NCBI GenBank assembly: GCA_964016885.1
Contig: OZ024753.1
Location: 44,392,001-44,456,000 of the forward strand
From: Eledone cirrhosa
Lineage: Eukaryota
Reading direction: 5' to 3'
DNA length: 64,000 nucleotides
The translations under genes and the position numbers were made by a program. Every line of letters starts with the position of its first letter. The stretch's first letter is position 1. This document shows positions 20,660 through 44,600 of this stretch, one piece after another. The notes beneath the pieces were generated by a model. It made no database searches, had not been told where the DNA came from, and worked only from the letters and a program-made list of their open reading frames with translations.

Positions 20660-20702
<43 letters not shown>

Positions 20703-20823
20703 TTCAATGGTGTTAATTTGATACACCAGAACTTTAATATTAAGATAAGCAGAACAAGTAAAATTCAATCAATTTTTCAAAATACATTAAAAAATATAAT
20801 ATAAATATTTACCTCTTCTAGTG

Positions 20824-20905
20824 GCCCTTACTGATCAGTTTCGCTTTGTAAAACCTCATAAATCCGATGGATTTATGATGGAAAACCAAAGCTCATCAGA
20901 GAAGC
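20824..20905 (-). ncRNA. Type I hammerhead ribozyme, canonical core
   Basis: Minus strand: gcTTCT-CTGATGA-GCTTTG(gtttt CCATCATAAATCC atc GGATTTATGAGG tttta)CAAAGC-GAAA-CTGATCAG-TA^AGGGc. Intact core, G10.1-C11.1 pair, long stem II, palindromic stem III, GUA triplet, stem I TTCT/AGGG with wobbles. Lies in a ~350 bp element (20701-21052) bounded by (TA)n. Confidence 0.85.
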
Positions 20906-21064
20906 ATTTTCCCTTCCTAGGGCTAAACGTCCCAGGAACGACAAAATATACAACCTCCTGCCAGCTAATAAAGGTCTGAAAGGTCGTAAAAGTGACCCGT
21001 ATGTAAACTGGTCCGAAGTAAAAGCGGGAAAATCAAAGACTTGCTGTCTACAATATATATATAT

Positions 21065-21095
<31 letters not shown>

Positions 21096-21112
21096 GATAT
21101 ATATATATAGAT

Positions 21113-21149
<37 letters not shown>

Positions 21150-21288
21150 TTGATTTCTACAGCTGAGTAAACTGGAGCAATGTGAAATAAAGTGTCTTGC
21201 TCGAGGAAAGAACACATCACCCGGTCTGAGAATTGAACTCACAACCTTTCGATTGCAAGGCCAATGCTCTAACCACTAAGCCATCTGC

Positions 21289-21740
<452 letters not shown>

Positions 21741-22298
21741 TATATATATGTGTAGAAGAGATAACTAATTGGTACCCTTGAAATATATATATAATAGAAT
21801 AAATATGGTTTTATTAATATAGTTTCCATTTATTTAATATCATTGTATATATATATACACCCACCCACCCACCCCCCACCCCACCCCATCCCCACACACA
21901 CATATAGTCCAACCCATGCAAGCATGGAAAAGCAGACATCAAAATTATGATGATGATTATATATCCATATATATATAAATTTTGATAGATTTTCTCACTC
22001 TCCGATATTTATTGTCAGTTTTCTCCACTAAGTGACAGTATCTGACAGATTTAGTCTACTTCAAAATAAATTTATGTTAATGATTTTAAAATATTTCTAC
22101 CTGCTTGTCAGGTGTTACTCATTGGATATCTTTTTGGTAATCACATCCCTTCATCTACAAAAGCTTTTTCTCTCTCTCTCTCTCTCTCTCTCTGTCCCCA
22201 TCTCTCTCTTCCTCCTTTCCCTCTCTCTCCATCTATTCATCTATCGTTTTACCTTTCTCTCTCTCACTCGCTCTCTCCATCTATTTATCTGTCTTTTA

Positions 22299-35620: not shown

Positions 35621-35799
35621 ATACTTTGGGAGGGTCATGTTGTCAATAAGAAACACACGCACCATGACCCTCCCAAAGTATAATAATATCGGTTTCAACA
35701 CACGATTTCAGATAAAGAATCTTGCTAAACAAATTCAGAAACGAAATATATATATATACAATATTAAATAAATGGAAACTATATTTATAAAACCATATT

Positions 35800-35865
35800 T
35801 ATTTCATTATATATATTTCAGGGATATCATATTAACAATAAGCTATGCCTTCCTCAGACAAAATA
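35800..35865 (-). ncRNA. Type I hammerhead ribozyme (inverted twin of 36100-36165)
   Basis: Reverse-complement copy in the left arm of the 35757-36208 inverted repeat; TCCTCAG at 35851-35857. Confidence 0.72.
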
Positions 35866-36099
35866 CAATATAAACAGTTTTATAGATAAATATATTCGAC
35901 ATACCGTAACAACATCTACTTGCATTTGAGAAGGTTGATTTGGTAGTGACAAAATTGTACACAGAGAGAAAGAAAGAGAGAGAGAAAGAGAGAAAAAGAG
36001 AGAAAAAGAATGTTGTCACTACCAAATCAACCTTCTCAAATGCAAGTAGATGTTGTTACGGTATGTCGAATATATTTATCTATAAAACTGTTTATATTG

Positions 36100-36165
36100 T
36101 ATTTTGTCTGAGGAAGGCATAGCATATTGTTAATATGATATCCCTGAAATATATATAATGAAATA
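36100..36165 (+). ncRNA. Type I hammerhead ribozyme (same family as 36353-36417)
   Basis: TATTTTGT-CTGAGGA-AGGCATAGCATATTGTTAATATGATATCCCT-GAAA-T-ATAT-ATA^ATGAAATA; stem II loop differs from the sister copy but still pairs (CATATT/AATATG). Confidence 0.75.
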
Positions 36166-36352
36166 AATATGGTTTTATAAATATAGTTTCCATTTATTTA
36201 ATATTGTAAATATACTCCAAATATTTGTCGAGTGCTTTTATATCAGTTATAAATATTTACTAGTTGTAACCCAACAATTTAAATATAACTTTCCATATAT
36301 ATATATATATACGATAATTAATAAATGGAAACTATATTTATAAAACCATATT

Positions 36353-36417
36353 TATTTCATTATACATATTTCAGGGATACCAAATTAAATTATGGTATGC
36401 CTTCATCAGACAAAATA
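36353..36417 (-). ncRNA. Type I hammerhead ribozyme (minimal stem III)
   Basis: Minus strand: TATTTTGT-CTGATGA-AGGCATACCA(taatttaatt)TGGTATCCCT-GAAA-T-ATGT-ATA^ATGAAATA. 8-bp stem I with two G-U pairs, 9/10-bp stem II, AUA triplet. Confidence 0.8.
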
Positions 36418-36557
36418 CAATATATAGCAGTTTTACAAATAAGCTTTGACGTACCCTATTAAAATGCAACCATTGTTTTGGGAAGCCATCCGGATAGCTT
36501 TATATCAGTTATAAAAATATTTACTTGTTGTATCCCAACAATTTTAAATAGAACTTT

Positions 36558-41015: not shown

Positions 41016-41350
41016 TGTTTTGCAAAGTTTTTGATATGAAATCGTGTGTCAAAACAAATATTGTTATACTTGGGGAGGGTCATATTGTAATAATATTGCC
41101 AGAAATAATAACAGAACACACTCACTGTTTGATTGGTTTTCACTTCTGTATCTATGGAGATATAAAAGATACAGAAGCGAAAACCAACCAAACAGTGAGT
41201 GTGTTCTGTTATTATTTCTGGCAATATTATTACAACAATATCTTACAGGTTCGATAAAATAAAGTACCAGTAATACACTGGGTATTTGATGGCCTTGTGC
41301 CTAACGTAGAAACAATTATTATAACAATACCACCCTCCTCAAGTATAACA

Positions 41351-41660: not shown

Positions 41661-44600
41661 ATGGTGGTTGTGGTGGTTGTGATGGTGATGGTGGTGGTGG
41701 TGGTGATGATGCTGCTTGTGGTACCGCTTGTGGTACCGATATTGGTAGTGGTGGTGGTACTAATATTTGTAGTATTGGTAGTGCCAATAATGGTGGTGTT
41801 AGTGATAATCATAATCATCATCATCATTATGATTATGATGATTATTAGAAATAAATCCATTTCTTTCCAAAATAATATAATTTCTCCATATTTCTAATGG
41901 ACAGTAAATCTGTCGTTGAGGACAGAACCTTTGTCTTCTTTATTCAATGTTGATCTATCTGGACAGTATATATAATAATGTATATCCAGCCACACAAAGC
42001 AATTATCTTTGATGAAAGTTACTCCAACATTAGTGGCAGCCACAAATGTCATTGGTAACATTATATTGACTCATATGAAAACTGACAGTTACTTTCCGAT
42101 CAATATTTTTGACAACATCTTAATGGCACATTTTCTAATGTGAACACACACACAGAGAAATTTATAAACTACAATAAAAATTTCATGACTCCAACCATCA
42201 TCCGAAGAGTTGTTATCGGAGGTTAATGTTAAAAGCTAAAGAATCAGTATCATTTATTATTATTATTATTTTTATATTTTATTTTATTTTATTTTTTTGG
42301 GGAGGTGGGGGTAGGGGTGCTTCTTTTTTATTTATTTATTTATTTATATTTTCTTTTCTCTATCCTTTTCATGGAACAAATCCCAGCAAATGTTGAAAAC
42401 AGAACTCAACACATTTGCTTTCCTTGGTTTATAACCATTCTTTGATTAGAAGCTACCAAATGGTAAACATGTTTATTTTACTGGAATTGACTTTTTGAAA
42501 AACATCACCTGCTGATATAATTTAATTTTTATTTTATTATTATTATTATTATCGTTATTATTATTATTATTATTATCATTTCATTCAGTGGAAAGTATGA
42601 AAAAAATTACTGTTAGCATATGCAGCCAGTTAAGAGGAAAATGAAGTTGATATTTGGTTGAAAATATGATTGATGTAGCAGTCAGTAAGAACATCAACAA
42701 AGCGGTTCAATAACAACTTTTCGTTAATATTAAAAGTTATAAAAGTCTTCACAGATAGAGAGATCCGTAATAAATAGCTAAATGTAATTTCAAATTGATG
42801 TTTCTTCTCTTTTATATAAGAAAAAAAAAATGAGAGAAAGAGAGAAATAATTTAGGAAAATATTCACACTTAGAAAGATAGGGCAAATTGCTAGACTTAT
42901 GTTGCTTTTACTGTTGCAGTTAAAAGCAATAAAAAAAAGCTTAATTTAATCATAATATATAGCACAGATGCTAAATCGTAGGTTAAGGTGTAAGTATTGA
43001 ACAGATAAAGTATTGTAATCTCTGGTAATTGGTTATGTGTTCATATTGTATTCTAGAGATGCAACTCTGGGTCCTAGGGTAACACATTTAATATTGCACA
43101 TATTAGCCAATTTTACAGCATATTAAATATAAAGTGACCTTCCTATGAAGATTCTATCATGCTGATAAATAACTGATTAAAATATTCACTGAGATGCTAA
43201 ACTACACTAAGATGTATGAAAGTTTGAGTGTAAATAATGAGCTTAGAAACCAGCTGGACATTAAGATCTTTGACTTCTTCTATGCAACAGAGAGAGAGAG
43301 AGAGAAGGAAGGATATGTTATGTGAATGAATTACACCTGCTGAGCAAAGAATGCTGTATAATTGTGTAGCATAAAGTTAGATCTATCAGATAGACATAGA
43401 CAGTAGTATACAGAGACAAAGGATTTTGGGAAGAAGTAGAAAAAATATCAGAATTCAGGCTTGCAGACATGTTGCCAGCAGACATAACAAATAACCCCTA
43501 GTATAAAAAAAAAAAAATTATATTAAGAATACTAATTATGGTTATGGTAATGATGGTGATAGTGGTGGTGGTGGTGGTGGTCATGGTGGTGATCATCATC
43601 ATCATCATCATCGTCGTTTTTACATCCATTTTTCCATGATTGCATGGGTTGGAAGGATCCTTTTCAGCACAGAATCTCTCCACTAATCATGTTCTTTTGT
43701 CATCTCTCCTGTGTGAATCTCAGTGAGTTGAATATCAGCTCTCACCCCCTCTGCCCAAGTCTCCCTTTGTCTTCCTCTACTGCAGCTTCCTTCCACTGGG
43801 ATTTCTTAGCCACAATTGCTAATATCAATATTCTGAGCTACAATTACTATGATAAATATTTTGAGCTACAATTATTACTATCATATTCTATCTTTCTTCA
43901 AAAGTCTTTCAATGTATTTATCTTTTGTTATCAGTTCGACATCTTTTGCAAATAAAATCTCTCCTAATGCACTTAATTTTTTTCTTGTTCAGTGAGACGC
44001 CTCTGATATTAAAGGGAGATAATATTTACTGATGAACAACATAGAGACAGCTAGTTATGATATCATCATTTGAGAACAGCAATGTAATAAATATATTGTG
44101 CTGATTTACATTATGATATAAAATTAACTTCAATCACAGACGAAATTTACCTTTTCTATTTGCTTCTATAGCAACAAGTTTAACAGCAATAACGAAGCAG
44201 AATTCCCCTAAGGTTTATATAGTCATTAACTTTATTCTGGCATGTAACATTGTTAAAAGGTAGCAATAACGGAGAGTTGGATGTAGCAACATATATTTGA
44301 TCACTTGACAGCATCTAAGAAGTCATTGAAATGAAACGTTGAATTACTGAATCCTCATAAAAATAATATTGTAGTTTCAAACTGAAGAGTGGAACAACAG
44401 TTTGGAATGATTAACAAATATTTCAATGCTTTAATCTTCATCGAAACATGAATCATTTTCTGATTGAGAAGATGTATTTCATGCTCCACTGCTAGAAATA
44501 ACAAGGTTCAGAATCACGGTTCCATGAGTTAGACGACATTCACTAAATCGGATCACATTCGCATTTTTCTTTTAACTCATATATAGCTATATGAACTGTT

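What the first reader, a model, noticed from the sequence alone, without database searches (positions are those of the whole stretch)
20824..20905. Textbook hammerhead with long stem II and self-complementary stem III
Best-preserved ribozyme in the window: canonical core and G-C at 10.1/11.1, a 6-bp plus ~12-bp stem II with a U-rich internal loop, and stem III CTGATCAG that is a perfect palindrome. It cannot close a proper hairpin loop along its full length but could pair between two copies. Established: minimal PLE and satellite hammerheads with palindromic stem III cleave as dimers. Predicted cut after GUA, between 20829 and 20828.
Basis: partly seen in the sequence, partly recalled or inferred. 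Interest (0 to 1): 0.75.

Follow-up and report, generated by a model that had tools for sequence, protein, structure and literature searches.

The report
Pseudoknotted hammerhead in young retrozyme
This is a hammerhead-ribozyme motif inside a cut-short copy of a 485-base non-coding repeat found hundreds of times in this animal genome; it likely cuts its own RNA, braced by a predicted pseudoknot and likely helped by two copies pairing, and the repeat is likely pasted into TA runs by Penelope-type retrotransposon enzymes, a known kind of jumping element.

Summary
The motif is real (minus strand; cut predicted at 20829/20828). It lies in a 353-bp, 5'-truncated solo copy, between (TA)n runs, of a young 485-bp non-coding tandem unit: 586 exact 26-mer matches genome-wide, arrays of up to 19 full units, several related subfamilies. 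Stems I-III covary. Stem III is a 10-nt palindrome that stays self-complementary in five forms, which favours dimer cleavage, although a monomer can close 3 bp plus a tetraloop. Copies end at two fixed points 92 and about 195 nt past the cut, the Penelope internal-priming and 'tail' signature. 5' ends pile up around and just after the cut (10 of 43; replicated 5 of 21), suggesting cleavage in vivo, though short stubs are rarer than that predicts. No autonomous partner was identified and no RNA holder was listed. Verdict: a new variant of the known animal non-LTR retrozymes. The scan has noted the same design before, in other families of this genome.

The parts
20702..21054 (-). 353-bp insertion: 5'-truncated copy of the 485-nt monomer (monomer positions 260-485, then 1-127; position 1 = first base after the cut)
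   Evidence: 1 difference, at 21012, from a natural array monomer
20824..20912 (-). type I hammerhead including the upstream pseudoknot arm
20907..20912 (-). GGAAAA, 5' arm of the predicted pseudoknot
20900..20905 (-). stem I 5' strand GCUUCU (one U bulged)
20893..20899 (-). core CUGAUGA (C3-A9)
20843..20892 (-). long stem II: 6-bp base, internal loop, 10-bp hairpin (20878-20869 with 20865-20856)
20880..20885 (-). UUUUCC in the stem II internal loop, 3' arm of the predicted pseudoknot
20830..20842 (-). GAA (G12-A14) and the 10-nt palindromic stem III ACUGAUCAGU (20839-20830)
20828..20829 (-). predicted cleavage site (after GUA)
   Evidence: sequence; TA-joined 5' ends at this point in 3-5 of 14 sites
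20824..20828 (-). stem I 3' strand AGGGC
20750..20820 (-). long AU-rich hairpin (monomer 9-79), predicted in all five subfamily representatives folded
20737..20744 (-). main family 3' end / inferred priming site (monomer 92); read through in this copy
   Evidence: 53 of 75 census 3' ends at 91-94
20702..20732 (-). conserved small hairpin (monomer 97-127; loop TCAAATTA invariant in five subfamilies); this copy ends at its 3' base
21055..21146 (.). (TA)n target on the 5' side
20691..20701 (.). short (TA)n on the 3' side, followed by a CA/TG microsatellite

Best explanation
The motif is a type I hammerhead in a truncated solo copy of a young 485-nt non-coding tandem repeat (a non-LTR retrozyme) whose RNA likely cuts itself after GUA, likely braced by a predicted stem I-stem II pseudoknot and likely working best when two units pair through the palindromic stem III, and whose copies are likely written into (TA)n by a Penelope-type reverse transcriptase/GIY-YIG protein. 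Shown: motif, family, arrays, fixed 3' ends, (TA)n flanks, covariation. Inferred cycle: a tandem locus is transcribed. Neighbouring hammerheads swap stem III and cut, giving unit-length and partly cut multimeric RNAs, some probably ligated to circles. The borrowed PLE protein nicks (TA)n and primes inside the RNA, mainly 92 nt and secondarily about 195 nt past the cut, beside a conserved hairpin that is the likely binding signal. It copies back through one or more units and stops at random or near a cleaved 5' end. Using both sites gives two-armed inverted insertions. The window copy is one such product, with an unusual 3' end (127), one hammerhead and no tandem partner, so it is probably a dead end.
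For: Family: 586 exact matches; units of 484-488 nt in tandem; arrays of up to 19 full units; longest frame without a stop 83 aa; GC 36%; circular fold z = -10.5 against 40 shuffles. Covariation in 18 relatives: 13 of 25 pairs change on both sides, 0 of 500 shuffles reach it, slid controls 2-7 pairs; one stem I pair is C-G 6, G-C 6, A-U 5, U-A 1. Pseudoknot: 94 of 105 distinct motifs have >=5 Watson-Crick pairs there, against a mean of 9.4 (maximum 17) with letters shuffled. In subfamily D the arms switch together: GAGAAG/CUUCUC-type G-C 18, A-U 9, mismatched 2 of 29 counted (30 rows, 1 dropped for a TA flank). Palindrome: 99 of the first 100 of 1137 listed matches are ACUGAUCAGU (42), ACUGUACAGU (42) or ACCGAUCGGU (15) (my count of the listing); D has ACCGCGGU 17 and ACCGCGCGGU 4 of 30. 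The AU-to-UA change at the centre is compensatory only between two copies. The double fold is 8.4, 8.3 and 9.6 kcal/mol better than two monomer folds in three tandem pairs, and 2.7 better in one subfamily B pair. Ends: of 75 3' ends in a 59-insertion census, 53 lie at 91-94 and 18 at 189-204; 65 of 75 are TA-flanked. An RT+GIY-YIG family of this genome shows the same two-arm geometry with an extension of about 60 nt at 3 loci. A purified Poseidon PLE primes at two internal sites downstream of its hammerhead (PMC11167929). 5' ends within -10..+26 of the cut: 10 of 43 (rate ratio 5.6; 1 of 300 permutations of a best-window scan); replicated with the window fixed beforehand in subfamily E, 5 of 21, p = 2.5e-4, unchanged by TA-microhomology weighting.
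Against: No cleavage or RNA data. In ViennaRNA the active monomer fold lies 10-11 kcal/mol, and the double fold 12-14 kcal/mol, above the free ensemble; the core CUGAU pairs with stem III instead (pseudoknot and core contacts are not modelled). Most clustered 5' ends lie 5-26 nt past the cut, not at it: only 3 unambiguous and 2 ambiguous of 14 TA-joined sites in 0..-16 sit at the cut, and 9 lie 4-15 nt before it. Stubs without a hammerhead are 12 of 30, fewer than the roughly 65% expected if every cut site stopped copying equally (p = 0.0045 on that rough figure). Subfamilies B and C have odd palindromes; 9 of 30 D stems are not palindromic (older copies). Swapping pseudoknot partners between sequences does not lower the count (91 vs 94), because most arms are invariant, and the D covariation may be one or a few events. 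No homology links the monomer to any of 50 GIY-YIG loci. For the Poseidon PLE, cleavage was not needed for insertion in vitro and no RNA reads ended at the cut (PMC11167929). Eight of nine Xenopus retrozyme dimers did not cleave in vitro (10.64898/2026.07.22.740005).
Confidence: 0.72

Rival explanations
1. The hammerhead works well as a monomer: the pseudoknot plus 3 bp and a tetraloop suffice, and the palindrome is kept by hairpin-templated repair or is incidental.
For: The monomer stem III can form (96% of cells paired in the 3 pairs). Pseudoknots give fast cleavage in other natural hammerheads (PMC3088659 passages). Odd palindromes in B and C. A similar axolotl stem III cleaved 22% alone (PMC7229834).
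Against: The loop bases stay self-complementary in all five even forms. The modelled monomer is trapped by core-stem III mispairing, and the double fold is favoured.
Confidence: 0.25
2. The ribozyme rarely cuts in vivo; templates are uncut multimeric transcripts, and 5' ends pile up because the reverse transcriptase stalls at the folded ribozyme or at the base of the long hairpin.
For: Every hammerhead-bearing insertion crosses at least one uncut site. Two arrays have period-4 variant patterns that a monomer circle cannot give (L116; L112+L113). 9 of 14 junctions lie just upstream of the cut. Cleavage was dispensable for the Poseidon PLE in vitro.
Against: The core is invariant and the stems covary over subfamilies only 70-82% alike, which implies selection on the active fold. 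Some junctions fall exactly at the cut. A plain stall should also stop the first crossing, yet stubs are scarce. One array (L114+L115) has only private changes, as a monomer circle would give.
Confidence: 0.2
3. The unit is the pseudo-LTR of an autonomous Penelope-like element not yet found, and the window copy is simply its truncated end.
For: Same ends, tail and target as PLEs here. Xenopus retrozymes are related to pLTRs. The genome gave 10,597 GIY-YIG candidates, of which only 150 were scored and 50 loci read.
Against: None of the 59 census insertions continues into a shared upstream sequence or ORF. PLE fragments found by tblastn near copies belong to different families and are not joined to the unit in a recurring way. 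The one co-located case (L093) is a separate insertion in the same (TA)n.
Confidence: 0.12
4. It is a satellite spread by DNA-level processes, and the hammerhead is a relic.
For: Array-specific haplotypes and higher-order repeats can come from unequal crossing-over.
Against: Dispersed copies with fixed 3' ends, ragged 5' ends, inversions and (TA)n flanks are marks of target-primed reverse transcription.
Confidence: 0.04

Closest known systems
Metazoan non-LTR retrozymes (Cervera and de la Pena 2020, PMC7229834, parts 2-4 of 6 read; Li, Clavereau and Pollet, bioRxiv 10.64898/2026.07.22.740005, parts 1-3 of 5 read)
   Same: Non-coding tandem units with one type I hammerhead each, low GC, strongly self-paired predicted circle, monomers to multimers, proposed PLE mobilisation.
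   Different: 485 nt (above the 150-450 bp of the 2020 paper, within the 51-972 bp of the preprint); 50-nt stem II with a Watson-Crick pseudoknot from its internal loop instead of the usual loop 1-loop 2 contacts; 10-nt palindrome; fixed priming sites and (TA)n targets mapped; circles and expression not shown.
Minimal / palindromic-helix-III hammerheads of Penelope-like pseudo-LTRs (Cervera and De la Pena 2014, PMC4209133, parts 1-2 of 4 read; Lunse et al. 2017 seen only as a reference-list title in PMC6765202)
   Same: Type I, short stem I, palindromic stem III, dimer model, tandem and inverted insertions.
   Different: Stem III can close as a 3-bp hairpin, stem II is far longer, a tertiary pseudoknot is predicted, and no RT/GIY-YIG frame is attached.
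Poseidon PLE of Anolis, internal initiation (Frangieh et al. 2024, PMC11167929, parts 1-2 of 4 read)
   Same: Two internal start sites downstream of the hammerhead cut (111-118 from the start codon, cut at 26), AT-rich targets, optional tail between the sites.
   Different: Here the RNA is non-coding, the tail is about 103 nt, the target is (TA)n, and genomic 5' ends cluster near the cut, whereas they found no RNA ends there.
Pseudoknot-braced natural hammerheads (Perreault et al. 2011, PMC3088659, 12 passages read)
   Same: [quoted passage not shown] S8).
   Different: The passages seen describe loop I with the 3' tail, or stem I-stem II pseudoknots in general; none describes an arm in an internal loop of a long stem II in an animal retrozyme. 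Supplements were not seen.

Membership tests
Type I hammerhead ribozyme | Core CUGAnGA...GAAA...UH with open end at stem I | tested here: met
Type I hammerhead ribozyme | Three stems supported by compensatory changes | tested here: met
   13 of 25 pairs with two-sided change, in all helices
Type I hammerhead ribozyme | Stem I-stem II tertiary contact | tested here: met
   predicted 5-8-bp pseudoknot with covariation; not probed experimentally
Type I hammerhead ribozyme | Self-cleavage after UH | not testable with these tools
   only indirect: 5' end clustering
Rfam hammerhead families | Covariance-model match | tested here: not met
   no hammerhead family at E<=10 in 20700-21050
Non-LTR retrozyme | Tandem units each with a type I hammerhead | tested here: met
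   family level; the window copy itself is a partial monomer
Non-LTR retrozyme | Non-coding, a few hundred nt, GC under 50%, self-paired circle predicted | tested here: met
   485 nt, 36% GC, longest stop-free frame 83 aa, z = -10.5
Non-LTR retrozyme | Expressed as linear and circular RNA | not testable with these tools
   no RNA holder listed
Non-LTR retrozyme | Target-site duplication longer than 4 bp when present | tested here: inconclusive
   (TA)n flanks hide any duplication
Non-LTR retrozyme | No PBS or PPT | not tested
   no LTR-type structure seen in the arrays; PBS and PPT were not searched
Minimal PLE hammerhead (min-HHR) | Stem III absent or reduced to the conserved pair; helix II 7-8 bp | tested here: not met
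   3 bp plus tetraloop; 50-nt stem II region
Autonomous Penelope-like element | RT + GIY-YIG ORF between pseudo-LTRs | tested here: not met
   none in the window near the copy; none joined to 59 census insertions
Works like a PLE template | Two internal 3' ends with an optional tail, 5' truncation, inverted arms, microsatellite target | tested here: met
   same geometry in an RT+GIY-YIG family

The most novel reading that the evidence does not exclude
A structurally distinct hammerhead subclass in which an internal-loop pseudoknot sets the fast fold while a palindromic stem III makes cutting conditional on pairing of two units. The genome keeps a fossil record of that cutting in the 5' ends of insertions, and the invariant hairpin beside the main start site is the signal by which a Penelope reverse transcriptase picks non-coding RNAs, so hammerhead cleavage would shape PLE-driven insertions in vivo, contrary to the one in vitro system published.
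Probability: 0.35. Interest if true: 0.68.

Novelty: new variant of a known kind. Interest (0 to 1): 0.46.

Why it matters
What hammerheads do in Penelope-like elements, and which enzyme spreads animal retrozymes, are both open: the 2020 paper calls PLEs a candidate, and the 2024 in vitro study found cleavage dispensable. A very young family with mapped start sites, a short invariant hairpin beside the main start, and 5' ends clustered at the cut gives ready substrates to test both. The ribozyme itself combines a pseudoknot with a dimer switch and is a clean test of how such RNAs avoid cutting themselves as circles. The locus in this window is probably an inert copy.

Tried and rejected
Rfam: the whole-window scan listed the best 150 of 412 matches, nearly all microsatellite-driven miRNA families below their gathering scores; the local scan found no hammerhead. 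A short-stem-II relative with the same palindrome: 1 match, not followed up. Coding role: rejected. Autonomous partner: blastn and a profile from five natural monomers hit only a co-inserted subfamily B copy among 50 GIY-YIG loci; the conserved hairpin was found in none of those PLE ends. L216, with two hammerheads 2.78 kb apart, is a local duplication, not pLTR-ORF-pLTR. Random pairing of two unrelated RNAs as the source of two-armed insertions: not supported; the two arms match each other best or tie in 11 of 14 testable loci, though later gene conversion could also do this. A strict one-site-per-arm rule: holds in 13 of 16 (subfamily A) and 9 of 12 (E), with one 229/229 case. A control count of TA-joined 5' ends at monomer 275-291 gave 5 sites (14 rows) against at least 31 sites (135 rows) at 1-16; it is not matched for copies at risk, so I do not rest on it. 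Expression: no RNA holder listed; the four listed runs are contigs of unrecorded kind from one study and show presence only. ARAGORN found no tRNA gene. The energy script stopped after 4 of 6 tandem pairs. The pseudoknot was not counted on alignment A1, whose columns are out of register there; it was counted in register by script. Lunse et al. 2017 is not held, so long-stem-II variants described there or in unseen supplements may bear on novelty. Paper searches listed no description of this family or of this pseudoknot in a retrozyme; a recent octopus repeat annotation has no occurrence of 'hammerhead', 'ribozyme' or 'retrozyme' (PMC13282606; the taxon was a guess from recall, not tested).

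Full report
Observation. On the minus strand the window reads stem I 5' strand (20905-20900), CUGAUGA (20899-20893), a 50-nt stem II region (20892-20843), GAA, the palindrome ACUGAUCAGU (20839-20830), A17 at 20829 and AGGGC (20828-20824). Stem II alone folds with z = -8.0. Rfam does not call it. A descriptor scan of the window gave five candidates: this one, three of another family at 35857-36409, and one weak hit at 44382.

What it belongs to. A search of the own genome (3.0 Gb, 1796 contigs) with 301 nt around the motif gave 1983 candidates; the 40 scored were all 100% (rounded) identical, many spaced 485 bp apart. An exact 26-mer across the cut occurs 586 times, its reversed control never. 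Units are 484-488 nt, 36% GC, have no stop-free frame over 83 aa even across the junction, and fold as a circle with z = -10.5 against 40 shuffles. The window holds 353 nt of the unit (positions 260-485, then 1-127, counting from the cut), with one difference from a natural monomer, between (TA)n runs. Fifty distinct full monomers fell into five clusters of 459-530 nt, 70-82% alike where blastn aligned them. A looser pattern gave 2166 matches against 17, and a more distant subfamily D gave 469 against 0.

The fold. In 18 relatives chosen to span subfamilies, 13 of 25 pairs change on both sides; no shuffle of 500 reaches that, and slid controls give 2-7. One stem I pair is C-G, G-C, A-U or U-A by subfamily (related sequences can beat shuffles, so the pair types matter more than the shuffle count). 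The 'U-rich internal loop' is more than a loop: its 5' side UUUUCC (20885-20880) is complementary to GGAAAA just before stem I (20912-20907). 94 of 105 distinct motifs can form at least 5 Watson-Crick pairs there, against 9.4 on average when the upstream letters are shuffled. Swapping partners between sequences gives 91, because most arms are the same. Subfamily D uses different arms, and its end pair is G-C in 18 and A-U in 9 of 29 counted, with 2 mismatches (probably one or few events). I read this as the stem I-stem II tertiary contact, of the pseudoknot kind that Perreault et al. found in about 40% of natural hammerheads (PMC3088659, passages).

Dimer or monomer. Stem III is self-complementary over its whole length in five forms: ACUGAUCAGU, ACUGUACAGU and ACCGAUCGGU (42, 42 and 15 of the first 100 of 1137 listed; 1 was not palindromic) and ACCGCGGU and ACCGCGCGGU (17 and 4 of 30; 9 not palindromic). 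The centre lies in the loop of a monomer hairpin, so keeping it complementary makes sense only between two copies. Subfamilies B and C have 9-nt palindromes with an unpaired centre. With constraints, a double-hammerhead fold is 8-10 kcal/mol better than two monomer folds in three natural tandem pairs of this subfamily and 2.7 better in one B pair, but all active folds lie above the free ensemble, where the core pairs with the 3' half of stem III. A monomer can still close 3 bp and a GAUC tetraloop; an axolotl hammerhead of that build cleaved 22% alone and much better as a dimer (PMC7229834). I put dimer-favoured cleavage at about 0.65-0.7. The window copy has no tandem partner, so it could only pair in trans.

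How it spreads. A census of all 59 insertions behind the first 100 of the 586 matches (C1 up to 383 Mb) gave 75 outer 3' ends: 53 at 91-94, 18 at 189-204 and 4 elsewhere, with 65 TA-flanked; none lay at 127 as in the window. Sixteen insertions are two-armed, and 13 of these pair one end of each class. Subfamily E repeats the pattern at the homologous points (27 of 45 ends at 125; 9 of 12 two-armed cases). An RT + GIY-YIG family of this genome (Pfam; a C-x4-C-x2-C linker before the endonuclease can be read in L093, the motif that Craig et al. give for Neptune/Nematis and tie to (TA)n targets, PMC8557442 passages) shows the same two-arm geometry with an extension of about 60 nt at three loci. 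Frangieh et al. showed that a PLE protein primes at two internal sites past its hammerhead and that the tail is the stretch between them (PMC11167929). A small hairpin just 3' of the main start has an invariant loop in all five clusters and is the likely binding signal (inference). The actual partner was not found: no homology to 50 GIY-YIG loci, a small sample of 10,597 candidates.

Traces of cutting. Of 43 single-arm 5' ends, 10 lie within -10..+26 of the cut (rate ratio 5.6; 1 of 300 permutations of a best-window scan matched it). With the window fixed, subfamily E gave 5 of 21 (p = 2.5e-4; all at +11..+18), and weighting for TA microhomology left both significant. Stubs running from near the cut to the main start exist (12 of 30 sites read), and 3 junctions fall exactly at the cut with 2 more ambiguous, of 14 sites in 0..-16. 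Against this: most ends are not at the cut, 9 of the 14 lie just upstream, and stubs are fewer than equal stopping at every crossing would give (rough expectation 65%, p = 0.0045); this I cannot explain. Stalling at the folded ribozyme remains a rival. On template shape the arrays disagree: each has its own haplotype, one long array has only private changes and one internal slip, as a monomer circle would give, while two have period-4 patterns that need a multimeric template or later local duplication.

Comparison and verdict. It meets the sequence-level definition of a metazoan non-LTR retrozyme (PMC7229834; 10.64898/2026.07.22.740005), fails that of a minimal PLE hammerhead and of an autonomous PLE, and works like a PLE template. 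Expression, circles and cleavage are untested. Five paper searches listed no account of this family or of an internal-loop pseudoknot in a retrozyme hammerhead, but Lunse et al. 2017 and all supplements were not seen. Earlier notes of this scan describe other families of this genome with long pseudoknotted stems II, paired end points and 5' ends at the cut; none matched this sequence. I had found the pseudoknot and the end clustering before seeing; the 'one site per arm' framing came and was tested here. New variant of a known kind; interest 0.46.

Noticed in passing
window 35750-36550: Another hammerhead family: a two-armed inverted insertion (cores at 35857- and 36108+) plus a third copy (36409-), with 8-bp stem I and palindromic ATATATAT-type stem III; read by eye, the arms end at different fixed distances past the cut, in (TA)n.
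   Followed up: partly
window 21147-21291 (-) and 21524-21669 (+): Two near-identical copies of a tRNA-like SINE head (A/B-box-like by recall; ARAGORN finds no tRNA) arranged back to back around a long (TA)n; one points into the retrozyme copy, but a T4 run early in the insert would likely stop Pol III before the hammerhead.
   Followed up: partly
window 21770-21835 (+): Truncated 3' half of a hammerhead (GAAATATATATA...) of the family seen at 36108 and in L102, ending in (TA)n.
   Followed up: no
window 41096-41223: Long near-perfect inverted repeat (the top Rfam row, below its gathering score); similar sequence lies in L093 near 8000.
   Followed up: no
L093 3270-6780; L097, L100, L103: RT + GIY-YIG Penelope-like family with a C-x4-C-x2-C linker, a long 3' UTR with a small hammerhead-like motif (ACCGGT stem III) and two-armed (TA)n insertions; a candidate helper by geometry only.
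   Followed up: partly
L112+L113 and L116: Long arrays with period-4 variant patterns; L114+L115 has one 565-nt unit with an internal duplication.
   Followed up: partly
subfamily E, e.g. L262: 527-530-nt unit whose first hairpin is lengthened by an AU-rich insert that still pairs, with a GUU cut triplet and a U.U at the base of stem II in many copies.
   Followed up: partly
subfamily E census, L283, L286, L295, L302, L306: A second pile of 5' ends at 122-146, at the main start site and conserved hairpin; subfamily A has 3 at 112-121. May mark a bound protein.
   Followed up: no
all fetched loci: A relaxed scan found other hammerhead-like motifs whose stems III are mostly full palindromes of 4-10 nt (9 of 14 types even palindromes, 2 odd, 3 not).
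   Followed up: no
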